Shown here in pieces: positions 23,991 to 42,189 of a stretch of DNA of 64,000 nt. Below the pieces are notes generated by a model. The model was not told where the DNA came from and ran no database searches. It worked only from the letters and a program-made list of their open reading frames with translations. Each line of letters begins with the position of its first letter. Positions within the stretch are counted from its first letter, which is position 1. This DNA comes from Nitrospirota bacterium (GTDB lineage Bacteria; Nitrospirota; Thermodesulfovibrionia; Thermodesulfovibrionales; JdFR-88), in NCBI GenBank assembly GCA_021789935.1, contig JAJYIR010000010.1, forward strand, positions 3,065 through 67,064, given 5' to 3'. Both the position numbers and the translations under genes were made by a program.

Positions 23991-26393
23991 TCAGTGTGCC
24001 GTCGTGATGATCGAGAGTGGATACAGCCCGGCGCTGACAGTGGCGGGGTTCATGGGCGTTAGCGCCCCGCCGGCGCCTATAGTGTACTGAGATACGGTTT
24101 TATCGCCCTCGTTTGTCACGTAAACGAACTTGCCCGAAGGGTCCACCGTGACGGAAATGGGCTCGGACCCGGCAGGGACCGTCGCCGGGTTCATCGGGGT
24201 GAGCGCCCCGCCGGCGCCTATGGTGTACTGAGACACGGTGCCATCGCCCTTGTTCGCCACGTAAACGAACCTGCCGGAGGGATCGATCGCAACGGACCAT
24301 GGCTCCGATCCGGCCGCGACCGTTACCGGCGACATGGATGTGAGCTCCCCGTCCGGGCTTATCGTGAACTGCGATACAGTGTCATTGCCCAGGTTAGCGG
24401 CGTAGACATATCTGTCCGAGGGGCCGGCCGCAACGGATTCGGTCCCATCCACCAAGATTCTACCAACGGTCCCTTCCATCGAGATCGTTCCATTTGAATT
24501 CATTATTGGACGCACCCACCACGGTGACATCTGTGTGAGCGACCCGTCCGTGCCTATGGTGTATTGCGCTATGGTGCTGTCGCCCTCGTTCGCTACATAG
24601 GCGTACCTGTCCGAGGGATCTATCGCGATCGATTCCGGCTCATTCACGGCATTTGCCGTTGACCGGGACATCGGCGTGAGTGTCCCGTCCGTGCCTATAG
24701 TGTACTGTGATATGGTGGTAGCGGCCGTGTTTGACACGTAGGCGAACTTGCCCAAGGGGTCGACCGTGACCGCTTCGGGTCCCTGCCCGGCATAGACAAT
24801 TGCCTGGGACATCGGCGTGAGCGCTCCGTCTGCGCCTATAGTGTACTGCGATACAGTGCCATCGCTCTCGTTCGCCACATAGGCGTACTTGCCAGAGGGA
24901 CCGACCGTGACGGACCAGGGCCGTGACCCGTACGACTCCCCGGTGTTGACCGTTGGGTGGGACATCGGCGCCAGCTCCCCGCCGGTCACTATAGTGTACT
25001 GCGACACCGTGCCGTCGCCCTCATTCACCACGTATGCGTACTCGGATAAAGAACTTGCCCATTTGGCGTACAGGGTGACATTTGCCGGACCCATTGTAAA
25101 GGTCTGGCCCTGCGTATAGGTGGTCCCGCTGCCGTCCGCCTGAGTGTTCCAGCCCGTAAATACATAACTGGCGTTTGCGAGGCTGCCGGTATTGCCGGAC
25201 ACCGTAACGGTCTGTCCCTGCTGGTAACGATTTGTTCCGGCCGGGACGGAGCCGCCGGTGTTGCCGTTTCCGTTATACGTTACGGTGTAAGTGGGATTTG
25301 CAGTCCAAATCGCGTACAGCCTAATGTTTTCCGGACCCATTGTAAAGGTCTGCCCCGGGGTATAAACCGTTCCGGATCCATCAGTCCTCGTGTTCCACCC
25401 CGTGAAGGAATATCCGGCATTTACGAGATTGCCTGTATTGCCGGACACTGTAAAGGTCTGGCCCTGCTGATAGTTGGTTGTGTCTGGAACACCGCCTCCG
25501 GTGTTGCCGTTCCCGTTGTATGTCACGCTGTAAACAGGGGTCGCCCACATGGCATACAGGGTGACATTCTGAGTGTCCACAGTTAAGGTCTGCCCCGGGG
25601 CATATGTGGTCCCTCCGCCGTCGGCCCGGGTGTTCCATCCCGCAAAAGAAAAGCCTGTGTTTGACAGGTTGCCCGTGTTGCCTGGCACGGTAACGGTCTG
25701 CCCCTGCAGGTAATGGGTTGTGTCGGACGGAACGATACCGCCGGTGCTGCCATTGCCGTTATAAGTTACGGTGTACGCGGGGTCCGCGGTCCACACCGCG
25801 TACAAGGTGACATTTTCAGGACCCATTGTAAAGGTCCGCCCCTGGGCATAAGTCGTTCCTGAGCCATCAGCCGCTGTGTTCCAGCCTGTGAAGGAATATC
25901 CGGCATTTACGAAGCCGCCAGTATTGCCGGGCACTGTAACGGTTTGCCCCTGCTCGTAATTGGCCGGGCCGGACGGCATGTTTCCGCCTGTGTTGCCGTT
26001 CCCGTTATATATCACGGTGTAAGTTGGGTCGCTCGACCATTTCGCGTACAGATCGATGTTCTCCGTGCCCATCGTAAAGGTCTGGCCCTGGGTATAGGTG
26101 GATCCGCTGCCATCCGCAAGGGTGTTCCAGCCTACAAATGTATAGCCGTTTTTTACGAGATCGCCCGTATTGCCCGGCACCGTAACGGTCTGTCCCTGCT
26201 TGTAACCGGCCTGGGGGGCTGGGGTGCCGCCGGTGTAGCCGTTCCCGTTATATATGACTGTGTAAACTGCAGCGCTGCCCGGATCCGTGCTCCCGCCGCC
26301 TCCGCTGCCGCAGCCGGTCAGGGTCAGGCCGGAGACGGCCGCAATCATCATGAACCCGTAAAAGAAAGCCCTCGTCCATTTTAATATTTCCAT
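23991..26393 (-). CDS. Large surface lipoprotein: 5 tandem Listeria-Bacteroides (InlB B-repeat-like) repeats plus a 7-bladed lactonase-type beta-propeller
   Basis: Likely start at the internal ATG (26393), giving MEILKW...LTLTGCGSGGGG (lipobox). Five ~80-aa repeats (YTVxYNGNGNTGG...GYxFTGWNTxADGSGTxY...LYAxW), then seven YAYVANEGDGTVSQYTIGxDGxLTPMS blades. Confidence 0.75.
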   Translation of the reverse strand: MEILKWTRAFFYGFMMIAAVSGLTLTGCGSGGGGSTDPGSAAVYTVIYNGNGYTGGTPAPQAGYKQGQTVTVPGNTGDLVKNGYTFVGWNTLADGSGSTYTQGQTFTMGTENIDLYAKWSSDPTYTVIYNGNGNTGGNMPSGPANYEQGQTVTVPGNTGGFVNAGYSFTGWNTAADGSGTTYAQGRTFTMGPENVTLYAVWTADPAYTVTYNGNGSTGGIVPSDTTHYLQGQTVTVPGNTGNLSNTGFSFAGWNTRADGGGTTYAPGQTLTVDTQNVTLYAMWATPVYSVTYNGNGNTGGGVPDTTNYQQGQTFTVSGNTGNLVNAGYSFTGWNTRTDGSGTVYTPGQTFTMGPENIRLYAIWTANPTYTVTYNGNGNTGGSVPAGTNRYQQGQTVTVSGNTGSLANASYVFTGWNTQADGSGTTYTQGQTFTMGPANVTLYAKWASSLSEYAYVVNEGDGTVSQYTIVTGGELAPMSHPTVNTGESYGSRPWSVTVGPSGKYAYVANESDGTVSQYTIGADGALTPMSQAIVYAGQGPEAVTVDPLGKFAYVSNTAATTISQYTIGTDGTLTPMSRSTANAVNEPESIAIDPSDRYAYVANEGDSTIAQYTIGTDGSLTQMSPWWVRPIMNSNGTISMEGTVGRILVDGTESVAAGPSDRYVYAANLGNDTVSQFTISPDGELTSMSPVTVAAGSEPWSVAIDPSGRFVYVANKGDGTVSQYTIGAGGALTPMNPATVPAGSEPISVTVDPSGKFVYVTNEGDKTVSQYTIGAGGALTPMNPATVSAGLYPLSIITTAH
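25055..26267 (-). repeat. Five tandem ~240-nt coding repeats inside the lipoprotein gene
   Basis: The repeats are visible at protein level and largely at DNA level (recurrent ccggtattgccgg/ggacaccgtaacggtctg blocks). Confidence 0.7.
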
Positions 26394-26669
26394 GCTGTTC
26401 GCCAAAAAAAAAGATGTGTTGCGGGTTTTTTTTAAAAACCATTGCTGATGCAAAGGATTGAACTTTGACGTTAAAGGGGACTGCACTTTGGAGCTAAAAC
26501 TTCAATTCGGAGTCTTTGAGTCCATGCGCCGGAGAAACAACAAAAGTCCAACGATTTCCACTTTATCAAAAAATGAAAAAGTGGTCAAGATACATAACCG
26601 GGTGTTTTAAATCCCGGTGGCATTGGCTTCTTCCTTGTCTTTTTAGCCATTTTCTCATAAACTAATCAG

Positions 26670-30206: not shown

Positions 30207-31678
30207 TGAAAGCGACCACTGAAGTCAAAGTCGGCATATTCGCTCTTATCGTCATCGGGATTCTCTCTCTAATGACCTTCTGGGTGGGAGGGCTTGCATG
30301 GCTCAAAAAGCCGGGCTACAAAGTGTATGTGTATTTTAATAACGTAAGCGGGCTGGATAAGAAAAGCAAGATAAGAGTGGCCGGAGTAGAGTCCGGATAT
30401 ATAGAAGACATCTCTCTTGTGGACGGCAGGGCAAAGCTGACCCTGAGGGTGAACAAGGGTGTTACGCTTTATTCAAACGCGGAGGCCGGAATAAGCTCAA
30501 TGGGCTTGCTCGGCGAAAAATATCTGGAGTTGAAGCCGGGTTCGAAACCGCCTGTACTGGGGCCTGGAGGTAACATAACCAGTGTTATCCAGAGCGTGGA
30601 CATGGACCAGCTCTTCCGAAAGCTCTCCTCTCTTTCTGACAGCCTCGGAAAGATTACCGGCAAGATAAACGAAGTGCTGTCGCAGAAGCAGATAAATGCT
30701 CTCAAATCGGCCATAGACAATGTGAAACTGATCACTGAAAATGTGAATAGCGCGGTCGTGCAGGACAATGCCAAGGTGAGGACCACCCTGGACAACGTCA
30801 ATTCGCTCATAAGCAATTTAAACGGGACGGTCAAAAAGAACGACAGAAACATAACAGAGCTTCTTGCCAACCTGAAGGACCTTTCACGGACGCTGGACGA
30901 GGAAGCCCCTGGCGTGCTGGCCAACATAAGGGACACAAGCGGAGAGATCAAGAAACTTGTAGCGCAAAACCGGCCCGGCATAGAGTCCATCGTAAACAGC
31001 ACGAACCAGATAACCGCCAACCTGCGTGAGGGCAAAGGCACACTTGGCAAACTCCTGACGGACAAAACACTGTACAACAACTTAAACAGCAGCGTAAAGA
31101 ACCTGAATAAGACCTTCGGCGCCATAAACCGCTTCAAGGTTTACCTGGACTTCCAGGGAAATTACCTTACAAGGCAATCAAACGGGGAAGGCACGTTCCT
31201 GCTTACCCTGCAGCCCAATCCGGATAAATACTATATTCTGGGCGTGGTTTCCAATCCGATCTCAAGGATAGACGATATACAGGTCTATGACCCGCAGACC
31301 AACCAGCTCGTGACAACTTCGGAAAACGTCCACTCGACCGTAGAATTCATAGGGCAGTTCGCTCGAAGATTCAAGAATACCGCGCTTCGCATCGGTGTCA
31401 CAGACAACACCTTCGGCGCCGGCGCGGACCAGTTCTTCATGAACGACAGGCTGAAACTCTCTTTGGACGCATGGGATTTTAGCGCCAAGGAGGCTTTTGC
31501 CAGGCATGCCCATTTGAGGGCAGGCGCCCAATATTTCCTTTTCAAAAATATTTATCTTAATGCGGGTTGGGACAATCCGCTTAATGCCCATTGGAGCGGC
31601 CCGTACATTGGCGGCGGCCTCAGGTTCGAGGACGAGGATCTTAAGTATCTCTTCGGGGCGGCATCGATCAAACCCTGA
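30206..31678 (+). CDS. MCE/MlaD-domain protein with a long helical region and a beta-rich C-terminal domain
   Basis: 490 aa. N-terminal TM, MCE domain (aa ~40-125), ~170-aa Asn/Leu-rich helical stretch, ~190-aa C-terminal domain. Start overlaps the mlaF stop. Confidence 0.75.
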   Translation: MKATTEVKVGIFALIVIGILSLMTFWVGGLAWLKKPGYKVYVYFNNVSGLDKKSKIRVAGVESGYIEDISLVDGRAKLTLRVNKGVTLYSNAEAGISSMGLLGEKYLELKPGSKPPVLGPGGNITSVIQSVDMDQLFRKLSSLSDSLGKITGKINEVLSQKQINALKSAIDNVKLITENVNSAVVQDNAKVRTTLDNVNSLISNLNGTVKKNDRNITELLANLKDLSRTLDEEAPGVLANIRDTSGEIKKLVAQNRPGIESIVNSTNQITANLREGKGTLGKLLTDKTLYNNLNSSVKNLNKTFGAINRFKVYLDFQGNYLTRQSNGEGTFLLTLQPNPDKYYILGVVSNPISRIDDIQVYDPQTNQLVTTSENVHSTVEFIGQFARRFKNTALRIGVTDNTFGAGADQFFMNDRLKLSLDAWDFSAKEAFARHAHLRAGAQYFLFKNIYLNAGWDNPLNAHWSGPYIGGGLRFEDEDLKYLFGAASIKP

Positions 31679-31699
31679 CGGTCTTTTTGTTTTTTTCTT

Positions 31700-31816
31700 G
31701 GCCCTTCAGGGTCCAGTGCGGGTCAAAATAGTTTTCCCTGAGGAAGATGGCAGGGGCAAAAAGGGTTGAGAGGGCGGGGAAGGCTGTTATCTCCTCTGCC
31801 TTGAGGGGAGAGGCAG
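31700..31816 (+). repeat. Dispersed ~117-nt intergenic repeat, copy A
   Basis: About 90% identical by my hand alignment (8 mismatches plus a 4-nt indel) to 51256-51376, same orientation. Contains the hairpin CCTCTSCC-TTGAG-GGGAGAGG. Confidence 0.65.
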
Positions 31817-31985
31817 GGACTCCGGTTTCGGCTGGAAAGACATTCTGCAGAATATTCGCGTTTTAACCGTGTAGGGAAAAGCCAAAAAAAATATATTTCC
31901 GGCATTCAATTTTGAAACGATGCGCTGGAGAAATATGAGAACTGGCTAGACTCTGGTCCCTGCCAGAAAAAAACTCTTCTGTGCC

Positions 31986-32191
31986 CTAGTGTCCTGTCCC
32001 GTAAATAGCTTTACATAACAGCTTTCAAGTAAGGTTTAGAAACATAAGCATCTCTAAGGTCGTCATGCCCGAGTGTCTTAATCGGGCATCCATTTTGACG
32101 TTTTTGTAAATTGGATTCCCGCCTGCGCGGGAATGACGGCCCAAAACATTCCTGAGCCAAATGTAAAGAACTGTTAGGGACACTACACTAG
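31986..32191 (+). repeat. MITE-like 206-bp element with imperfect 31-nt terminal inverted repeats and two internal REP-like hairpins
   Basis: 31986-32016 (ctagtgtcctgtcccgtaaatagctttacat) matches the reverse complement of 32161-32191 (ctagtgtagtgtccctaacagttctttacat) at 23/31 positions. Internal 8-bp-stem hairpins at 32065-32089 (atgcccga...tcgggcat) and 32115-32134 (attcccgc-ctgc-gcgggaat). Confidence 0.35.
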
Positions 32192-32441
32192 TTGCTCAAA
32201 CATCTCCCCAGCGCTTTGGGATTCCCCCTCCCGTACTTTCAATGCAATTAATGTGCCCCGCTCCTGAACTTTAAAAATCCAATAAAAAACGGGTGTTATT
32301 TTTTACCGTGTTCCGAATGGCGCTTCAGCTGTGAAAAATGCCGCAATGGTGTGGGCTAAATCACTCCGGATTTGCGGGGGTGGTTCCGGAGGAAAGCGCT
32401 CCGGCCTGGTCCGCGGCAATATTTTCCGGAGTGGTAATTCT

Positions 32442-33800
32442 TTAATAAAGTTTGGGCAGGTATCCCGTACGGTCGTCAAAGTCCAGCACATGGCACTTGT
32501 TGCAAAGCTGCCTTTGATATGGGCCGAATGTTTTTTTAATGTCCCTGCCGTAGTATGGAGCGTTTACCACGTATGCGCCATAAGGGCTATACTCCGTATT
32601 AGGGTCGTACGTGGGGCCAGGGACCGAGTTTGCAAGGAACGTCGTCCTGGTGTCCCACCTGGTGGACCACTCGAAGGCAGAGGCGTGTGCCCTGTGGCAA
32701 GTAAGGCATGAGGGGAAACCGGGGATGGACGCTGTGGGGCCGTTAGTATTTTCTCCATTGAGCTGCGATGGCTTGGATATAATTCTTTCAAAAGGCACCA
32801 GCGACAGCCATGCGCCGGTTGCGTTTGAGGTCTTATTCAAGAGATTCCCGGTCGCTATGTAGGAGTTATATAACAGGGGGACCCCCTCAGCCGATGTTCC
32901 TGCGACGGGGTGATGGGTGAATTGGTTCCATGGGTGGCAATTTTCGCACCACAGGGACATGTCATTGTAAGGTTGATACATATGGGTGCCGTAATCCACA
33001 TGATGCCTGTTGTCGGCCGTTTCGGCAAAATTATAAGCCGGTGAACTGTCCGCCGCCGCCATCGGCGCACCGTAAGAGAAAGTGTAAGGGGCCAGGCTGT
33101 TGCCTTTGTAATGGGTGTCCCCAAGGAGCCTGTAGTTGCCGCAAATAGTGCCTGAATGAACATTCGAACAGCCATAGGAGCCCGACATGCTCACCGGCTT
33201 CTGTCCGCGGCCGGTCCCTCCGTTTACCTGTCCGTGGGGGTCATGACAGCTCGTGCACATGAGGGCGGCAGACGGATAGGTGCCACCCGGTGCGTTTGTG
33301 AAATTGGTGTCGGCAGCCATGTCAAAGTCCTTGGCGACCACGTTATGACCGTGGTCCTGACCATTTATCAAATATGAGACCCCGTTTTCCAGCGCCGTAT
33401 ACGTAACGGTAAGGCTCATCCAATAGAAGTCCCCTCCGGGATTGATATTGACGTTCCCGTCAACGCTGAGAACCCGGTAGGGCATTCCTTTTTGCGCGTG
33501 GCAATTAAGGCATGTGGAGCTGTCGTCTGATCCCCTTAGCAAAAACGGGCTTACCGCGTTGCTGACGCTGCCGTTTGGATTTACAGGCTTGCCGTACCAG
33601 TTTTTCACGCCATTTATGGAGGTCTGGTCCGGGGAGAATTTGGGTGTGGTACCCGAGGATATAGAATTGTGCATCGTGTGGCATCCCTCGCAAAAGCCTG
33701 CGCCGCCGTTGTGAAAGGCATGGACGCTGCCCGGTCGCGCAACTATCACGACAACCGCCGCGAGGACCGCAAAAACCGCATTGAGCAGATGTTTTTTCAT
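32442..33800 (-). CDS. OmcS-family hexaheme c-type cytochrome (secreted)
   Basis: 452 aa, signal peptide, six CXXCH motifs (CEGCH, CLNCH, CTSCH, CENCH, CLTCH, CNKCH). Colinear by eye with Geobacter sulfurreducens OmcS: FHNGGAGFCEGCHTMHNS, NPGGDFYW, APGGTYPSAALMCTSCHDPHG, LSLVPFE, CLTCHRAHASAFE, YYGR...FGPYQRQLCNKCH. Confidence 0.85.
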   Translation of the reverse strand: MKKHLLNAVFAVLAAVVVIVARPGSVHAFHNGGAGFCEGCHTMHNSISSGTTPKFSPDQTSINGVKNWYGKPVNPNGSVSNAVSPFLLRGSDDSSTCLNCHAQKGMPYRVLSVDGNVNINPGGDFYWMSLTVTYTALENGVSYLINGQDHGHNVVAKDFDMAADTNFTNAPGGTYPSAALMCTSCHDPHGQVNGGTGRGQKPVSMSGSYGCSNVHSGTICGNYRLLGDTHYKGNSLAPYTFSYGAPMAAADSSPAYNFAETADNRHHVDYGTHMYQPYNDMSLWCENCHPWNQFTHHPVAGTSAEGVPLLYNSYIATGNLLNKTSNATGAWLSLVPFERIISKPSQLNGENTNGPTASIPGFPSCLTCHRAHASAFEWSTRWDTRTTFLANSVPGPTYDPNTEYSPYGAYVVNAPYYGRDIKKTFGPYQRQLCNKCHVLDFDDRTGYLPKLY

Positions 33801-33986
33801 AAGGATTCCTTCCGGTTCTGACGTTTTAAATTAAATTAAATTGAAATTAACCATTCAGAGTCCCAAAGCGGGATGATTAAACTGTCTCATCGTATCCGCT
33901 TTAAAATCCGTTCCCGGCAAAGGATTTTATTTTTATTTGACATATCCGCCTTTTTTATCCTGGGATTCGCCCGATGTATTTTCCAT

Positions 33987-35291
33987 CTAATCCTGCGCGT
34001 GGCACTTGTTGCATAGCGACCTTTGTTCAGGGCCGAAAACGGTGCTTATGTTCCTCCCGTAATAGGGGGCGTTGGTGACATACGGCCTGATGAGGTCCTG
34101 GCCCACGTTATACACGGGCCCTGGGGATGAGTCGCTAAGAAAAGTGGCATAAGTGTCCCATCTTGTATCATGGTCGAAGGCCGAGGCATGTGCCCTGTGG
34201 CATGTGAGGCACATGACGTTTTCCTTACCCGTGGAGGGTCCGTCCGTCCTTTCCCCGTTTAGCTGCGTAATGTCCGTTACTCCCCGTTCAAAGGGGACGA
34301 GAGAGAGCCATGAGTGGGCTGCCGTTCCATCAAAAACCCCCGTAGCCACATAGGAGTTGTAGTTTTTCGTGACTGTTGCCATAAGCGCCTGGACGCCGTC
34401 CGGATGCCTGCGGGCATCATTGTGCGAGGTGTTTCCGCTGTTTGAAAAATCGCAGTGGCAGTTGGAGCACCACTCAGACATGCCGGAACCGTAATCCACG
34501 TGGTGCCTGTTGTCCGCCGTCTCAGCGAAATGATATGCGGGGTCGGAATCCGCGGCGGCGATAGGATCTCCGTAATCCCAGGTTGGAGAGCCCGATTGCA
34601 CGTTGTCCCAGTCTGTGCGGTTCAATAGTCTGTATTTTCCCAGGCTGGAGCCTCCCGGTGCGGTCCCGCCATAAGAGCCAGACCGGCTGATGGGCGGGAG
34701 AGAGGCGCCGCCGTTGCCGGCATAGGTGCTGTTTGGCAGCCTGCCGTGCGGGTCATGGCAGTTTATGCATGAGAAATCTGCGCTGGTGACGGTAAAGCCT
34801 GGAGAGTTGGAATCGCAGCTGCTGTTTCCCGGAGGCTCCTGCATAAAGGGACTGTTCGTAAGGCCGTAGTCCAGTGCCACTATGGCGTGGCCCTTGTTGA
34901 AACCGTTGTATTTCGCAATGGTTTTAGTGCCGTCCGGGTTTATTATTGTTACTGAACCGCTTTCGGTCAGCCAGAAGAAATCCCCCCCGGGAGAAAATAC
35001 GCTTCCGTCGGTGCTCAACACCTGGTATGGCTGGCCCTTCATTGCGTGGCAGTTAAGGCATGTGGAGCTCGGGTCTGATCCCCTGGTGTACCCGGGGCCG
35101 CCCATCGGTTCGCCCGGCCCGCCGGGGTGCATGACATGGCAGCCCTCGCAATATCCCACGCCGCCCGAATGGAACAGTGTGTCTCCATGACTATCGGTGG
35201 ATATTAAAAAAATAAGGGTGCTCGCAACGCAAAGCAGGATTAGGGCCTCGGCTATGCGTTCTTGCAACTTAGAATTGTGCCTTGTGAACAT
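33987..35291 (-). CDS. OmcS-family hexaheme c-type cytochrome (secreted), paralog
   Basis: 434 aa, signal peptide, six CXXCH motifs (CEGCH, CLNCH, CINCH, CSNCH, CLTCH, CNKCH). Ends ...CNKCHAQD, close to my recollection of the OmcS C-terminus. MSEWCSNCH and RHPDG blocks match OmcS. Confidence 0.85.
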   Translation of the reverse strand: MFTRHNSKLQERIAEALILLCVASTLIFLISTDSHGDTLFHSGGVGYCEGCHVMHPGGPGEPMGGPGYTRGSDPSSTCLNCHAMKGQPYQVLSTDGSVFSPGGDFFWLTESGSVTIINPDGTKTIAKYNGFNKGHAIVALDYGLTNSPFMQEPPGNSSCDSNSPGFTVTSADFSCINCHDPHGRLPNSTYAGNGGASLPPISRSGSYGGTAPGGSSLGKYRLLNRTDWDNVQSGSPTWDYGDPIAAADSDPAYHFAETADNRHHVDYGSGMSEWCSNCHCDFSNSGNTSHNDARRHPDGVQALMATVTKNYNSYVATGVFDGTAAHSWLSLVPFERGVTDITQLNGERTDGPSTGKENVMCLTCHRAHASAFDHDTRWDTYATFLSDSSPGPVYNVGQDLIRPYVTNAPYYGRNISTVFGPEQRSLCNKCHAQD

Positions 35292-35758
35292 CCTTCCTCC
35301 GGGGGATCAGTAAGCAATTAGTATGCCCCTGCGGCCATGCATTTTTAAAATCATTAGAAACAAATACTTACCTGTGGTTGTATAAGCAGCCAAAAAAGGA
35401 AATGGTTAAAACTGCGCAATTTGCCGCATAAACTGAGGTAAATCACGGATTTTGGAGGCTGAAGAGGGAGAAATAAAGGTTTATCTTCGGTTACTTTTTG
35501 TATTTTATTTTTTAAGTTAATATATCTTCGGTTGTGTGAGCACCCGGGTTGCATGTTCTTGAGAGGACCCGGGAACTTTTTTTAAAATTATTGCGGTATC
35601 GTGCATCCCATGGTTGTGTGTAGGGCATGGGGAGCTGAAAACTTCCATGCATCAAGATTTCCGGAGGCGGGGAAAATCTTCAATTCTTTCTCCGGGAAAT
35701 TCTATAATAACGGGACAGCCTTTTTTTTTGATTTTTTGAGGAGGTAATTCCATTTAAG

Positions 35759-38287
35759 GTGAAAAAAAGATACGAGCCCGGGGAGATCGAGCTTAAATGG
35801 CAGGAGATCTGGGCCCAAAAGGGAAAAAACATTTTTTCCAGCAGGGTTTCAAAGACAGCCCCCAAATTCTATTGCCTGGAAATGTTCCCTTATCCCTCGG
35901 GTAAGATACATATGGGCCATGTAAGGAATTACGCCATCGGTGATGTCATAGCCCGGTACAAGAGGATGCGCGGTTATAACGTGCTTCATCCAATGGGTTG
36001 GGATGCGTTCGGCCTGCCCGCCGAAAACGCCGCCATAAAAGAAGGTGTTCACCCGGCCCGCTGGACCCACGAAAATATCGCTTACATGAAAAAGCAGCTG
36101 GTAAGGCTTGGGCTTTCCTATGACTGGTCCAGGGAGTTGGCCACGTGTCTGCCGGAGTACTACAGGTGGAACCAGTGGTTTTTCATCAAAATGTATGAAA
36201 AAGGCATTGCCTACAGAAAGGCCTCCTTCGTAAACTGGTGTCCCTCCTGTTCCACAGTGCTCGCAAATGAGCAGGTGATAGAGGGCAAATGCTGGCGCTG
36301 TGACAGCACGGTGATACAGAAGGAACTGGAACAGTGGTTTTTAAGGATAACGGCTTATCAGCAGGAGCTTCTCGATGCCGCGGACAGCCTTGCCGGATGG
36401 CCTCAAAAGGTGGTCCTGATGCAGAAAAACTGGATCGGCCGCAGCGAGGGGCTTGAGGCAATGTTCCGGGTGGAGGGGAGCGATGAGAGCATAGTCGTAT
36501 TTACGACAAGGGCGGATACCCTTTTCGGGGCCAGGTTCATATGTCTGGCGCCGGCCCATCCGCTGGCGGAAAAATTCGCTGAACCGGGCGCTCTTGCGAA
36601 AATCAGGGAGCATTACGGCAAGGTGGACGAGAAGCATGGTCTTTTTACCGGGCGGTACGCCATCAACCCCGCCAACGGTGAAAAGATACCCATTTATGTG
36701 GCCAATTTCGTATTGATGGAATACGGCACCGGGGCGATAATGTCTGTCCCGGCCCACGACCAGCGTGATTTTGAGTTTGCGCAAAAATATGGCCTTCCGG
36801 TGAAGGTGGCGGTAAAACCTGAAGGGGGAGAGGAAATCCCGGAGGGTAAGGCCTTCGAGGAGGACGGTATTCTTGCAGACAGCGGGCCATTCACCGGATT
36901 AAAGAGCGCTGAGGCCCGCGCAAAGATAGCCGGGTTCATTGAAGGCAAGGGCATGGGCAGGCGCATGGTGAATTACCGGTTGAGGGACTGGGGGATATCC
37001 CGCCAGCGCTACTGGGGGACGCCTATCCCGATAATCTACTGCGAACACTGCGGGGCCGTGCCGGTGCCGGAGAAGGACCTTCCCGTTATTTTGCCTGAAG
37101 ATGTGAAATTCACCGGGACGGGCGCCTCTCCGCTTGCGGAGGCTGAGAACTTTGTAAATACGGTCTGTCCTTCGTGCGGCGGAAAGGCCCGGAGGGAAAC
37201 GGACACGATGGATACGTTTATGGACTCATCCTGGTACTATGTCCGCTATTGTTCGAGAAAAGACGAGCCTGCCCTGGATAAGGAAAACCTCAGGTATTAC
37301 ATGCCGGTGGACCAGTATGTTGGCGGTGTGGAGCACGCAGTCCTGCACCTGCTGTATTCCAGATTTTTCATGCGCGTGATAAGGGACCTCGGTCTGTCCG
37401 AGGTGCCGGAGCCTTTCCAGAGACTGCTTACCCAGGGTATGGTCTGCATGGAGACCACCCGCTGCCCGGAGCACGGATGGCTTTATCCCTCCGAAGCCGA
37501 GGGAGGGGTGTGCGCCAAATGCGGGAGGTCCGTGGAGCGTGGCCGGACCGAAAAGATGTCTAAATCGAAGAGAAACGTCGTTGACCCCGACCACCTGATT
37601 AAAACATACGGCGCGGACACCGCGAGGCTTTTCTCGCTTTTTGCCGCCCCCCCGGAAAACGATCTTCAATGGTCTGAAAAAGGGGTGGAGGGCGCTCAAA
37701 GGTTCATACTGAGGGTCTGGGCGTTCATACATGACAACATGGAAAGACTTGAGGCCGTGAAGGGGCAGCTCCCGGAGGGGAAATCGCCCCTTTTGAGGAA
37801 GACCCATCAGACCATAATGCGTGTCACAAGGGACATCGAGCGTGAATATCATTTCAATACCGCCATAGCCGCCATGATGGAACTGGTCAATACGCTTACG
37901 GCCTTTGAACCGGCTGAATCCGGACCCGAAAACCGGGAAGACCTCCGCCAGATGCGCTTTGCCGTGGAGAAGATGCTTCTTCTTTTGAGCCCATTTTGTC
38001 CGCATGTGGCGGAAGAGCTGTGGGAGGCCATCGGAATGCCCGCATCCATACGGCTTGAGTCCTGGCCCGGGTATGATGAGGAAGCGGCGAGGGAAGAGGA
38101 GATAGAGCTCGTAATACAGGTGAACGGGAAGGTCCGGACGAAGATAATGGTGCCTCATGGGCTGCCTGACGATGAGCTCAAGACCCGGGCCATGGCGCTT
38201 CCCAGGATACAGGACGCTGTCGCCGGCAGGCAGGTAATAAACATATTTGCCGTAAAGGGAAAGCTTGTAAACATAGTGATCAGATGA
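35759..38287 (+). CDS. leuS: Leucine--tRNA ligase
   Basis: 842 aa. HMGH and KMSKS class-I signatures and a CP1 editing domain. GTG start. Confidence 0.95.
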
Positions 38288-40065: not shown

Positions 40066-40236
40066 TCTAATCCTCCTCTTAGGGGCTATTGTTTAGCTTA
40101 TAAACTATCATATCTTTCCTCATGAAATCAATACCCGCGTTTTGTCAGCCCGTACCTTGATATGTTACATTATAATTTGCCGTATAAGTGCCGCTTTAAG
40201 ATTTTTTTTTTATTCAGAGGGAAACGGAGAAAAATC

Positions 40237-42189
40237 ATGGGCAGGAACATAGCGGAGAAGATACTGGATGCTCATCTGGTCTATGGGGATGTAAAGACCG
40301 GCTCGCGCGCCGGGCTCAAGATAGACCATGTTTACACGCAGGACGCAACCGGCACGATGGCATGGCTGCAGTTCGAGGCCATAGGAGTGGACAGGGTCAA
40401 GGTGCCCCTGTCGGTCTCTTATGTGGACCACAACATGCTTCAGTCAAATTTCATGAACGCCGACGACCATGAGTTTCTGCGGACCGCCGCGCAAAAATTC
40501 GGGGCCTGGTTTTCCAGGCCTGGCAACGGGATATCCCACCAGATACATCTGGAGAGATTCTCCGCCCCGGGCAAAATAGCTCTGGGCACGGACAGCCATA
40601 CTCCGACCGGAGGCGGTATCGGCATGATGGCCATAGGCGTGGGCGGGCTTGACGCCGCAACGGTGATGGCCGGTGCGCCTTTTGAGCTAAGGGTCCCTGA
40701 GGTGCTGAGGGTAAGACTAACAGGCAAGCTGAAAAGGCCCTGGGTAATGGCCATGGATGTAATCCTGGAACTCCTCAGGAGGTTGAGCGTAAAAGGCGGA
40801 GTGGGGAAGATAATCGAATATTCCGGGCCGGGTGTAAAGCAGCTAAGCGTGCCTGAGCGCGCTACCATCACCAACATGGGCGCGGAACTCGGGGCCACGA
40901 CCTCAATATTTCCCAGCGACGAGCGGACCCTTGTTTTCATGAAGGCCCAGAACCGCGAAAAGGACTGGGTGGAACTCAAGGCCGATGAAGACGCCTCTTA
41001 TTCAGACACTATAAGCATAAACCTTTCGGAACTCGAGCCCATGATGGCGGCGCCCCACAGCCCGGACAAGGTGGTCCCGGCAAGGGAGCTGGCGGGAATG
41101 AAGATAGACCAGGCCTGCATAGGCAGCTGCACGAACTCTTCTTTTGTGGCGCTCAAGGAGGTTGCCTCGGCCTTGAAGGGGAGGGTGGTTTCCCCCGGAG
41201 TGGGCCTCCTTGTAAATACAGGCAGCCGCCAGGTAGCGCTGATGCTGGCCAAAGACGGCACCGCCTCCGATTTCCTGGGCGCGGGCGCACGGATGCTGGA
41301 GTCTTCCTGCGGGCCGTGCATAGGAATGGGCGGTGCGCCCGGCAGCGGGCAGGTCTCTATCCGGACCTATAACAGGAACTTCATGGGCAGGAGCGGCACG
41401 AAGGACGCCAAGGTATATCTGGCAAACCCCCTCTTGTGCGCCCTTTTTGCGTTGAAAGGGGAGGTGGTTGATCCCATGAAGGAAGAGGAGATAAAAGTGA
41501 AGCGTATCAAGGAGCCCGCAAGCTTCCTGATCGACGACAAGATGCTCATCCCGCCCTCTGGCGATGAAAGCTCCGTTATTAAAAAAGGGCCAAATATCAA
41601 GGAAGTCCCCCTGAAGAAAGCATTGGATGACGTCATACGCGCCCAGGCCCTTCTTGTGGTGGGTGACAACATAACGACAGACGATATAATGCCCGCGGGC
41701 TCCCAGATACTCCCCCTTCGCTCCAACATCCCGGCCATTTCTCAATATGTCTACAGGGGGATTGACGCCGATTTCAGCAAGCGGGCGCTTGAAGCGAAGG
41801 AAAAAGGCGGGGGGGCGATCATAGGCGGGGAAAATTACGGGCAGGGCTCATCCAGGGAGCATGCGGCGTTGGCCCCCATGTATCTTGGCGTAAAGGTGGT
41901 CATCGCAAGGTCCTTTGCGCGCATACACAGGGCGAACCTTATCAACTTTGGCATCCTGCCCCTTGCGTTCAAAGACCAGGGGGGCCATGATAAAATAAAA
42001 CCTGGTGACATGCTTCTGATAGAAAACGTAAGGGCGGCGGTCAAGGGAGGCCAGTCCTGCACCGTGCAGAACCTCACCAGCGGCCTTACCTTTGAGGTTG
42101 TGTCCAACCTGACGGAACGTGAGGCCGATCTCATTTTGTCCGGCGGGCTTTTGTCTTACATCCGGGCACGTTTTGCGGACCGGAACTGA
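40237..42189 (+). CDS. Aconitate hydratase (about 650-aa short aconitase type)
   Basis: ATG at 40237 is preceded by the SD ggaga; the track ORF from 40162 adds an implausible leader. Cluster-ligand blocks IGSCTNS and SCGPCIGMG, and a swivel domain with GENYGQGSSREHAA. Confidence 0.85.
   Translation: MGRNIAEKILDAHLVYGDVKTGSRAGLKIDHVYTQDATGTMAWLQFEAIGVDRVKVPLSVSYVDHNMLQSNFMNADDHEFLRTAAQKFGAWFSRPGNGISHQIHLERFSAPGKIALGTDSHTPTGGGIGMMAIGVGGLDAATVMAGAPFELRVPEVLRVRLTGKLKRPWVMAMDVILELLRRLSVKGGVGKIIEYSGPGVKQLSVPERATITNMGAELGATTSIFPSDERTLVFMKAQNREKDWVELKADEDASYSDTISINLSELEPMMAAPHSPDKVVPARELAGMKIDQACIGSCTNSSFVALKEVASALKGRVVSPGVGLLVNTGSRQVALMLAKDGTASDFLGAGARMLESSCGPCIGMGGAPGSGQVSIRTYNRNFMGRSGTKDAKVYLANPLLCALFALKGEVVDPMKEEEIKVKRIKEPASFLIDDKMLIPPSGDESSVIKKGPNIKEVPLKKALDDVIRAQALLVVGDNITTDDIMPAGSQILPLRSNIPAISQYVYRGIDADFSKRALEAKEKGGGAIIGGENYGQGSSREHAALAPMYLGVKVVIARSFARIHRANLINFGILPLAFKDQGGHDKIKPGDMLLIENVRAAVKGGQSCTVQNLTSGLTFEVVSNLTEREADLILSGGLLSYIRARFADRN

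What the first reader, a model, noticed from the sequence alone, without database searches (positions are those of the whole stretch)
32442..35291. Tandem pair of OmcS-family hexaheme cytochromes (nanowire-type) retaining the inter-subunit histidine, in an isolated locus
Both proteins (452 and 434 aa) have signal peptides and six CXXCH motifs. They are colinear by eye with Geobacter sulfurreducens OmcS from the mature N-terminus (FHNGGAGFCEGCHTMHNS / FHSGGVGYCEGCHVMHPG versus OmcS FHSGGVAECEGCHTMHNS) to the C-terminal ...YQRxLCNKCH.

The histidine three residues after the first CXXCH is present in both paralogs (CHTMH, CHVMH). In the OmcS filament structures this residue (His16) ligates a heme of the neighbouring subunit. 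Its presence is compatible with polymerisation into conductive filaments.

The pair sits between a mla operon and leuS. I see no porin-cytochrome conduit, pilin or assembly genes nearby, and the adjacent non-coding DNA is full of repeats (see the two findings at 31700 and 31986).

In a genome with CODH/ACS and an uptake hydrogenase, this hints at extracellular electron transfer or interspecies electron exchange.
Basis: partly seen in the sequence, partly recalled or inferred. Interest (0 to 1): 0.65.

Follow-up and report, generated by a model that had tools for sequence, protein, structure and literature searches.

The report
Paired OmcS-family six-heme cytochrome genes

Summary
ORFs 33987-35291 (cytB, 434 aa) and 32442-33800 (cytA, 452 aa), both on the minus strand, each carry six CXXCH motifs. 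OmcS is their only solved relative (HMMER E about 1e-54; Foldseek TM 0.70 and 0.59). All 12 heme cysteines and all 12 axial-histidine positions are kept, including the His16 equivalent.

That histidine does not discriminate. It is kept in 93-97% of family members, including Geobacter OmcT and GSU2501, which are not known to form wires.

The pair arose by a duplication inside Nitrospirota, independent of omcS/omcT. Both genes are under purifying selection, and the pair is syntenic in four related lineages.

A conserved sigma-54-type promoter sits 36 nt upstream of cytB. The same motif heads osc-like (OmcS-companion) clusters elsewhere in related genomes and occurs nowhere else in the 868 kb examined.

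No assembly genes lie in the window. A sister-species genome carries the pair and, on another contig, an osc-like cluster.

Verdict: a new member of a known kind. An extracellular electron-transfer role is likely. Polymerisation is plausible but unproven.

The parts
33987..35291 (-). cytB: the upstream gene, a 434-aa OmcS-family hexaheme c-type cytochrome. The inferred axial histidines are H41, 52, 55, 82, 135, 179, 182, 279, 296, 365, 368 and 431. Two clade-specific extra cysteines, C159 and C280, are present.
   Evidence: ORF. HMMER against OmcS gives E 1.1e-54 over the full length. Ligand mapping. AF2 pLDDT 76, and Foldseek to 6ef8 gives TM 0.70 at E 6e-22. dN/dS 0.10-0.13.
32442..33800 (-). 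cytA: the downstream gene, a 452-aa OmcS-family hexaheme cytochrome. The inferred axial histidines are H30, 41, 44, 101, 152, 186, 189, 289, 297, 369, 372 and 437. Clade-specific features are an insertion of about 30 residues straight after the His16 equivalent and a 12-residue C-terminal tail, FDDRTGYLPKLY.
   Evidence: ORF. HMMER E 1e-54. Ligand mapping. Insertions and tail are conserved in orthologs P0005, P0007 and P0012. AF2 pLDDT 70, TM 0.59 to 6ef8; the insert and the tail are low-confidence. dN/dS 0.11-0.13.
35313..35328 (-). P1: a sigma-54-type -24/-12 element, GGGCATACTAATTGCT, 36 nt upstream of the cytB ATG.
   Evidence: It sits at the same position (-36 to -38) in four lineages (window, L001/L007, L005/L008, L026) although the flanks have diverged. 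The strict motif is found only beside OmcS-family or osc-like genes in 868 kb. That it is an RpoN promoter is inferred from the consensus, not shown.
35367..35448 (-). Conserved blocks upstream of P1: ATACAACC... (35367-35383), TGCGGCAAATTGCGCAG (35412-35428) and CCGTGATTTACC (35433-35448). They are candidate activator or IHF sites.
   Evidence: Alignment of three lineages; coordinates. The function is inferred only.
35292..35300 (-). Ribosome-binding site GGAGGAAGG of cytB.
   Evidence: Read from the sequence.
33801..33986 (-). The 186-bp spacer between cytB and cytA. It holds the cytA ribosome-binding site (GGAAGGA, within 33801-33813) and a weak AT-rich hairpin (33903-33928). The spacer is 68 bp in L001 and 6 bp in L005, so the pair is most likely one operon.
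   Evidence: No promoter or terminator signal above chance.
32215..32258 (-). P2: a second sigma-54-type element, GGGCACATTAATTGCA (32243-32258), followed by a conserved block, CGGGAGGGGGAATCCCAAA (32215-32233). It lies downstream of cytA and faces non-coding DNA. It is an orphan promoter of unknown target.
   Evidence: Found. The same block is conserved after cytA in L001/L007 and L005/L008. No conserved ORF follows it, and no remnant of a GSU2505-like gene was found.

Best explanation
cytB and cytA are two functional, Sec-exported hexaheme c-type cytochromes of the OmcS family. They arose by a gene duplication within this Nitrospirota lineage.

They are most likely transcribed together from a sigma-54-dependent promoter just upstream of cytB. 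The same promoter type heads the osc-like (OmcS-companion) clusters of related genomes. The pair therefore probably belongs to one activator-controlled extracellular-electron-transfer regulon, even though it sits among housekeeping genes.

Each mature protein should bind six bis-histidine hemes in a linear chain like that of OmcS. Eleven ligands would come from the protein's own chain. The twelfth ligand position is the histidine three residues after the first CXXCH (H44 in cytA, H55 in cytB). In OmcS this histidine ligates heme 5 of the next subunit. The likeliest mode of action is therefore head-to-tail polymerisation into a heme wire on the cell surface. Assembly would be done in trans by an osc-like machinery encoded elsewhere in the genome. 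The wire would pass respiratory electrons to Fe(III) minerals, or exchange them with partner cells, in mine-drainage sediment.

Shown: homology, fold, the complete ligand set, purifying selection, synteny and promoter-motif conservation.

Inferred: sigma-54 dependence, export, polymerisation, the direction of electron flow, and the presence of the machinery in this genome.
For: - Family membership: OmcS is the only PDB relative, E 1e-54. Foldseek finds only 6ef8, with TM 0.70 for cytB and 0.59 for cytA.
- Ligands: of OmcS's 17 histidines, exactly 12 are family-invariant (six in CXXCH motifs plus H2, 16, 110, 147, 257 and 335). All 12 are present in both proteins. This matches the 12 all-histidine ligands, one of them from the neighbouring subunit, described in PMC6584659.
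- Both genes are maintained: dN/dS is 0.10-0.13, compared with 0.08-0.12 for leuS and mlaD.
- The pair is syntenic in four lineages.
- The P1 motif is conserved at -36 to -38 in four lineages.
- The strict motif has 33 hits in 868 kb against 0.4 expected. Every hit lies before an OmcS-family or osc-like gene, or at P2.
- The Geobacter omcS locus is itself preceded by a histidine kinase and a sigma-54-activator response regulator.
- Sister MAG WY3.bin97 has the pair (L007) and, on another contig, an osc-like cluster (L011). That cluster holds a GSU2505-like gene (E 4e-57), a 526-aa OmcS-like gene, a YNCE propeller (44% identity to the Geobacter protein, E 5e-125), a 794-aa homolog of the 718-aa Geobacter protein (E 1e-53) and a PPIase.
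- The same cluster occurs in contigs from the same sample series.
- Origin: mine-drainage metagenomes, at up to 88x word depth.
Against: - The inter-subunit histidine is family-wide and is also present in OmcT and GSU2501. No filament is known for those two (PMC12977616), so the histidine does not predict polymerisation.
- No osc, pilin, porin-cytochrome, periplasmic triheme cytochrome, rpoN or activator gene lies in the 64 kb.
- The osc-like cluster could not be tied to this particular genome.
- cytA has a 30-residue insertion next to the arm histidine and a C-terminal tail. cytB probably keeps 3 extra N-terminal residues. Any of these could alter an OmcS-type interface.
- There is no expression evidence. 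Three small metatranscriptomes, held only as contigs, show nothing.
- The physiological need for OmcS filaments is itself disputed, even in Geobacter (title and abstract of PMC11077965, as listed).
Confidence: 0.55

Rival explanations
1. The two proteins are non-polymerising paralogs, as OmcT, OmcJ and GSU2501 appear to be so far. They would act as monomeric or loosely associated periplasmic or outer-surface electron carriers. They might feed or cap a filament made by the longer (505-526 aa) OmcS-like protein of the osc-like cluster. The arm histidine would ligate heme 5 of its own chain or serve only transiently.
For: - Only OmcS among the four Geobacter paralogs is known to form a wire (PMC12977616), yet all of them keep CHTMH.
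- The pair lies away from any assembly genes.
- In related genomes it is a different, longer paralog that sits inside the osc-like cluster.
- cytA and cytB carry clade-specific insertions at the N-terminal arm and at the C-terminus.
Against: - In OmcS the arm histidine reaches the neighbouring subunit, and eleven of the twelve ligands come from the protein's own chain (PMC6584659). A monomer would therefore have to refold its arm or leave heme 5 five-coordinate.
- The shared promoter motif argues for co-expression with the assembly genes.
Confidence: 0.35
2. The pair works in the opposite direction. It would take up electrons from Fe(II), from reduced minerals or from a partner, and feed autotrophy through the Wood-Ljungdahl pathway encoded nearby.
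For: - CODH/ACS and a formate-dehydrogenase-like or NuoEF-like module lie in the same window.
- The habitat is iron-rich mine drainage.
- Heme chains of this kind can carry electrons in either direction (general knowledge).
Against: - A [NiFe] uptake hydrogenase with cytochrome b already supplies reductant.
- There is no Cyc2- or Mto-type gene in the window.
- The sequence says nothing about direction.
Confidence: 0.15
3. cytA and cytB co-assemble into one mixed filament: either alternating subunits, or one protein acting as base or cap for the other.
For: - Strict tandem conservation of both types across four lineages, with a spacer of only 6 bp in one of them.
- The two clades have been distinct for a long time, yet both are constrained.
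Against: - All solved cytochrome filaments cited here are described as homopolymers (PMC12307469).
- The proteins are only 42% identical and differ in their insertions.
- No test of this was possible.
Confidence: 0.08
4. The genes are decaying or silent leftovers of a larger cluster. The secretin and whatever P2 once drove have been lost.
For: - The neighbouring secretin found in L005, L008 and L026 is absent here with no remnant.
- Orphan promoter P2 faces repeat-filled non-coding DNA.
Against: - Both ORFs are intact with every ligand position kept.
- dN/dS is 0.10-0.13.
- The promoter and ribosome-binding sites are conserved.
Confidence: 0.03

Closest known systems
OmcS (GSU2504) of Geobacter sulfurreducens, the hexaheme nanowire subunit (PDB 6ef8/6nef)
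   Same: - Six CXXCH motifs in the same order.
- The same six distal histidines, including the arm histidine (His16).
- FH at or near the mature N-terminus and YQRxLCNKCH at the C-terminus.
- The same predicted fold (TM 0.70 and 0.59).

   Different: - Only 32-37% identity.
- The window proteins are equally distant from OmcS, OmcT and GSU2501, so they are not OmcS orthologs.
- cytA has a 30-residue insert after the arm histidine and a C-terminal tail.
- cytB has an insert carrying an extra cysteine, and probably 3 extra N-terminal residues.
- No filament has been shown.
The omcS-omcT tandem and the osc (OmcS-companion) operon of Geobacter (Shen et al. 2025, as described in PMC12977616 and PMC13194489)
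   Same: - Two paralogous hexaheme genes sit head to tail.
- A sigma-54-type regulatory link is plausible. The Geobacter locus has a sigma-54 activator next to it; the window pair has a sigma-54-type promoter.
- An osc-like cluster exists in sister genomes.
   Different: - The duplication is independent. cytA and cytB are sister clades inside Nitrospirota, 90/100.
- The companion genes are not adjacent here. The pair sits between mlaD and leuS.
- The 1017-aa spermine-synthase-like gene of Geobacter has no counterpart in the Nitrospirota clusters examined.
Other Nitrospirota OmcS-like genes, for example the five-gene array in L022 and the 505-526-aa paralog inside the osc-like clusters of L011, L028 and L031
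   Same: - They fall in the same phylogenetic neighbourhood.
- They carry the same promoter motif, GGYAY-N2-WAATTGC.
- They come from the same kind of habitat. omcS KEGG-orthology hits in Nitrospirae MAGs from acid-mine-drainage sediments were already reported in PMC9948709.
   Different: - The window pair lacks the GSU2505-like NHL gene and the beta-propeller and barrel genes that accompany those loci.
- The two proteins are shorter than the paralog that sits inside the osc-like clusters.

Membership tests
OmcS-family hexaheme cytochromes (sequence and fold family) | Six CXXCH heme-attachment motifs, colinear with those of OmcS | tested here: met
   All 12 cysteines and 6 proximal histidines align with OmcS in both proteins.
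OmcS-family hexaheme cytochromes (sequence and fold family) | Six conserved distal histidines (OmcS H2, H16, H110, H147, H257, H335) giving bis-His ligation | tested here: met
   All six are present in cytA and cytB and are 93-100% conserved in the family. Calling these six the ligands rests on conservation plus PMC6584659; no coordinates were inspected.
OmcS-family hexaheme cytochromes (sequence and fold family) | Significant full-length sequence similarity and the OmcS fold | tested here: met
   phmmer E 1e-54. Foldseek E 6e-22 and 2e-21 with TM 0.70 and 0.59, and no other PDB fold below E 1.
OmcS-family hexaheme cytochromes (sequence and fold family) | A cleavable signal peptide leaving F-H at the mature N-terminus | tested here: inconclusive
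   cytA has ...VHA|FHNGG, like most family members. cytB and its orthologs have small-residue sites 3 residues before FH and an 18-residue hydrophobic core. Read by eye only; no predictor was run.
OmcS nanowire system (polymerising subunit plus osc machinery) | An arm histidine able to ligate heme 5 of the next subunit | tested here: met
   H44 and H55 align with His16. The feature is present in 93-97% of the family and in OmcT and GSU2501, so it is necessary but not sufficient.
OmcS nanowire system (polymerising subunit plus osc machinery) | Head-to-tail polymerisation into an extracellular filament | not testable with these tools
   Only monomer prediction without hemes was available, and model coordinates are not exposed.
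OmcS nanowire system (polymerising subunit plus osc machinery) | Linked osc companion genes (GSU2505-like, YNCE propeller, 718-aa protein, LpoB-like, PPIase and others) | tested here: not met
   tblastn of the Geobacter locus proteins against the window gives only the cytochromes, plus a weak propeller hit at 24108-24929 (E 6e-8). Pfam scans of the rest of the window show housekeeping genes.
OmcS nanowire system (polymerising subunit plus osc machinery) | osc-like machinery present somewhere in the same genome | tested here: inconclusive
   It is present in sister MAG WY3.bin97 (pair on L007, cluster on L011) and in contigs of the same sample series (L028, L029, L031).
Orthology with Geobacter omcS/omcT | The pair descends from the same duplication as omcS/omcT | tested here: not met
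   In the NJ tree the cytA and cytB clades are sisters (90/100) inside a Nitrospirota clade, apart from the Geobacter OmcS, OmcT and OscC.

The most novel reading that the evidence does not exclude
In these Nitrospirota, a dedicated sigma-54 regulon, marked by GGYAY-N2-WAATTGC promoters, would tie dispersed OmcS-family loci to a single osc-like assembly cluster. The housekeeping-embedded cytB-cytA pair would then supply additional nanowire subunits assembled in trans, either as two wire types or as a mixed wire. The orphan promoter P2 after cytA would drive a so far unrecognised short transcript of the same regulon.
Probability: 0.2. Interest if true: 0.55.

Novelty: new member of a known kind. 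Interest (0 to 1): 0.32.

Why it matters
If these proteins polymerise, OmcS-type wires would extend to abundant, uncultured, H2- and CO2-metabolising Nitrospirota of mine-drainage sediments. That would give a handle on who reduces Fe(III) or exchanges electrons there.

The practical lesson is a caution. The "inter-subunit histidine" is a family signature and cannot be used to call nanowires from sequence.

The more useful lead is regulatory. One sigma-54-type promoter motif marks every OmcS-family or osc-like locus seen here. It could be used to delimit the EET regulon in these genomes and to choose conditions for expression studies.

Tried and rejected
- **Secretin remnant.** tblastn of the L005 secretin against the window found nothing. 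The secretin is present in L005, L006, L008 and L026 but lost here and in L001/L007.
- **Beta-propeller lipoprotein as an Osc or NHL companion.** The 831-aa protein at 23991-26486 shows no significant similarity to the NHL proteins of L022 or L024. Its hit to the Geobacter YNCE protein is only weak (E 6e-8). It was not counted as part of the system.
- **Small 55-aa ORF upstream of the pair in L001-L004.** It is not conserved in the window.
- **Remnant of a GSU2505-like gene after P2.** None was found.
- **Rfam.** No RNA family matches 31000-36500.
- **Sigma-70 promoter and terminator scan.** The counts are at chance level.
- **Local repeats in 31600-32500.** None were found inside the region. 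The repeat is interspersed in the metagenome, not tandem.
- **Expression.** Three metatranscriptomes from the same study show zero depth. They are small and held only as contigs, so this is uninformative.
- **Primary papers.** Wang et al. 2019 (Cell) and Shen et al. 2025 (Cell Chem Biol) are not held in the library. The His16/His332 numbering is from my own knowledge. The content of the osc operon is taken second-hand from PMC12977616 and PMC13194489.
- **First tree script.** It timed out and was redone with a faster distance method.
Full report
**1. Observation**

The minus strand holds two ORFs at exactly the stated coordinates: 33987-35291 (434 aa, here cytB) and 32442-33800 (452 aa, here cytA). 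Each has six CXXCH motifs. No other ORF in the 64 kb has more than two.

phmmer against all PDB chains returns one real hit for each protein, OmcS (6ef8/6nef), at E 1e-54 and 1.1e-54. For cytB the alignment runs from FHSGG to the C-terminal CNKCHAxD. Pfam sees only the generic Paired_CXXCH_1 model.

AlphaFold2 models built on 122-sequence alignments have mean pLDDT 76 (cytB) and 70 (cytA). They match 6ef8 and nothing else, with TM 0.70 and 0.59 at E 6e-22 and 2e-21.

The flanks are mlaE/F/D on one side and leuS-lptE-holA on the other. Upstream lie the CODH/ACS genes, a NuoEF-like plus molybdopterin module, and a [NiFe] hydrogenase with cytochrome b and HycI.

**2. Heme ligands and the 'inter-subunit histidine'**

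OmcS has 17 histidines. In an alignment with the 120 nearest homologs, exactly 12 of them are conserved. Six are the CXXCH histidines. The other six are H2, H16, H110, H147, H257 and H335. The remaining five are variable.

This fits the published description: 12 histidine ligands, 11 from the subunit's own chain and one, on heme 5, from the neighbour (PMC6584659). That the neighbour's ligand is His16 is my own recollection of Wang et al. 2019; that paper is not held in the library.

Both window proteins keep all 12 positions. The His16 equivalents are H44 in cytA and H55 in cytB.

This histidine is a signature of the whole family:
- It is present in 97.5% of the 120 nearest homologs.
- It is present in 93% of 106 full-length representatives of 50%-identity clusters, the same level as the other N-terminal ligands.
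- It is present in Geobacter OmcT and GSU2501/OscC, both of which read CEGCHTMHNS.

Only OmcS among the four Geobacter paralogs is known to form a wire (PMC12977616). The retained histidine is therefore compatible with polymerisation but cannot identify it.

**3. Family size, origin and selection**

A profile search of 1.84 billion cluster representatives finds 258 clusters at E<=1e-30 and 681 at E<=1e-10.

The nearest named relatives are Nitrospirae/Nitrospiraceae MAGs. The DNA occurs in mine-drainage metagenomes at up to about 88x word depth.

The cytB+cytA pair is found with the same neighbours in at least three further lineages (L001/L007, L005/L006/L008, L026), at 70-80% protein identity. 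dN/dS is 0.10-0.13 for both genes, against 0.08-0.12 for leuS and mlaD. dS is near saturation, so these ratios are rough.

In a neighbour-joining tree the cytA clade and the cytB clade are sisters (90/100). They sit inside a Nitrospirota clade, apart from the Geobacter OmcS, OmcT and OscC. The window proteins are equally distant (35-37% identity) from all three Geobacter paralogs. The tandem pair is therefore an independent duplication, not an omcS/omcT ortholog pair.

Each clade has its own fixed features:
- cytA has an insert of about 30 residues directly after the arm histidine and a C-terminal FDDxTGYLPxxY tail. Both are low-confidence in the model.
- cytB has a PPGNSSCDSNSPGFT insert and a CHC motif that together add two conserved cysteines. 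It also has a likely signal-peptidase site three residues before FH.

**4. Regulation**

A sigma-54-type -24/-12 element, GGGCATACTAATTGCT (35313-35328), lies 36 nt upstream of the cytB start codon. Its GG-N10-GC spacing is correct for that promoter class. It is conserved at -36 to -38 in four lineages, although the surrounding non-coding DNA has diverged. Three further blocks upstream of it are also conserved.

The cytB-cytA spacer is 186 bp here, 68 bp in L001 and 6 bp in L005. The two genes are therefore most likely one operon.

The stricter motif GGYAY-N2-WAATTGC occurs 33 times in the 868 kb of window plus fetched loci (both strands counted), against about 0.4 expected. Many hits are redundant copies of the same locus; I count about 14 independent sites. 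Every hit falls in one of four places:
- in front of cytB orthologs;
- in front of the GSU2505-like gene that heads osc-like clusters (L009, L010, L011, L028, L031);
- in front of OmcS-like or NHL genes of L022;
- at a second site, P2, just after cytA.

The Geobacter omcS locus is itself preceded by a histidine kinase and a sigma-54-activator response regulator. RpoN dependence is inferred from the consensus only. No rpoN or activator gene lies in the window.

**5. Assembly genes**

[quoted passage not shown] An eight-gene block, GSU2500-GSU2493, lies downstream of GSU2501 and has been linked to nanowire maturation and secretion (PMC12977616). Both papers cite Shen et al. 2025, which is not held in the library.

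I fetched a Geobacter omcS locus (L027) and searched its proteins against the window. Only the cytochromes match, plus a weak propeller hit in the 831-aa lipoprotein at 23991-26486 (E 6e-8). That lipoprotein is not similar to the NHL proteins found next to other OmcS-like genes. The rest of the window is housekeeping. 'Isolated' is therefore correct for this window.

MAG WY3.bin97, however, carries the orthologous pair on L007 and, on a second contig (L011), a full osc-like cluster:
- the sigma-54-type promoter;
- a GSU2505-like gene (E 4e-57);
- a 526-aa OmcS-like cytochrome;
- a YNCE propeller (44% identity to the Geobacter protein, E 5e-125);
- a 794-aa homolog of the Geobacter 718-aa protein (E 1e-53);
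- a PPIase.

The same cluster recurs in contigs of the same sample series (L028, L029, L031). I could not assign one of these contigs to the window's own genome.

**6. What it most likely is**

The pair is a set of two maintained, exported OmcS-family hexaheme cytochromes. They are probably co-transcribed from a sigma-54 promoter of the type that heads the lineage's osc-like clusters, and probably serve extracellular electron transfer in an iron-rich anoxic habitat.

Polymerisation through the arm histidine is the mechanism that best fits the ligand arithmetic: eleven ligands from the protein's own chain plus one contributed to a neighbour. I put it at roughly 40-50%. The main rival, at about 35%, is that these are non-polymerising paralogs that accompany a filament made by the longer paralog inside the osc-like cluster. 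The direction of electron flow and a mixed-filament arrangement remain open. Gene decay is excluded by intactness and selection.

**7. Novelty**

OmcS homologs are known to be widespread (PMC10954620). omcS KEGG-orthology hits in Nitrospirae MAGs from acid-mine-drainage sediments have been reported (PMC9948709). The difficulty of calling wires from OmcS-like sequences has been spelled out (PMC12977616).

This is a new member of a known kind. The modestly new points are the independent duplication, the family-wide status of the arm histidine across about 100 diverse clusters, and the promoter motif that links dispersed loci.

Noticed in passing
window 32215-32258 (- strand): An orphan second sigma-54-type element, GGGCACATTAATTGCA, followed by a conserved block, CGGGAGGGGGAATCCCAAA, lies downstream of cytA and faces non-coding DNA. 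The same block is conserved after cytA in L001/L007 and L005/L008. L026 instead has a degenerate version followed by a 32-aa ORF with a signal-peptide-like start. The target of this element is unknown: it could be a lost gene or a short RNA.
   Followed up: partly
window 31986-32194: A high-copy interspersed repeat. Its word depth is 425-1167x against about 17x for the flanking DNA in mine-drainage run X1. Short-read contigs L018-L021 all end inside it. It contains an ATTCCC-N8-GGGAAT hairpin at 32115-32134. No copy lies elsewhere in the window.
   Followed up: partly
L005 12975-14696, L006, L008, L026 3213-4808 (absent from window 31679-32441): A 531-573-aa GspD-type secretin (N0, Secretin_N and Secretin domains) lies between mlaD and the cytochrome pair in two related lineages, on the mla strand. 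It is missing, with no remnant, in the window and in L001/L007. This could bear on export of the cytochromes, or it could be an unrelated mla-linked gene.
   Followed up: partly
window 23991-26486 (- strand; likely true start near 26393, MEILKW...LTLTGC lipobox): A predicted lipoprotein (831-aa ORF) with five Listeria-Bacteroides repeats and a 7-bladed lactonase/YVTN-type beta-propeller. It is inserted between the hydrogenase maturation genes and the mobA-like gene, and it is absent at this position in L001 and L005. Its similarity to the Geobacter YNCE/OscD-position protein is only weak (E 6e-8).
   Followed up: partly
window 1170-23701: A carbon and energy module: a pterin-binding methyltransferase, two CdhD-type corrinoid subunits, ACS beta, CODH (prismane family), a NuoE/F-like plus molybdopterin (formate-dehydrogenase-like) set, a GltD-like oxidoreductase, and a [NiFe] hydrogenase (small and large subunits) with cytochrome b and the HycI protease.
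   Followed up: partly
window 40202 (near the start of the aconitase ORF, 40162-42189): Contigs of three runs (16.8x, 85.5x and 26x) lack one base that the window has at 40202. The window's aconitase ORF is 675 aa, against 650-652 aa in relatives. The window may carry a 1-base assembly error or a real variant that affects the annotated start.
   Followed up: no
L022 299-11263 (Nitrospiraceae MAG GCA_027348725.1): An array of five OmcS-like genes (420-430 aa) with a GSU2505-like NHL gene and a 218-aa unknown gene. Two of the genes are preceded by TGGTAT-N5-TTGCT elements. It shows how strongly this family is amplified in some Nitrospirota.
   Followed up: partly
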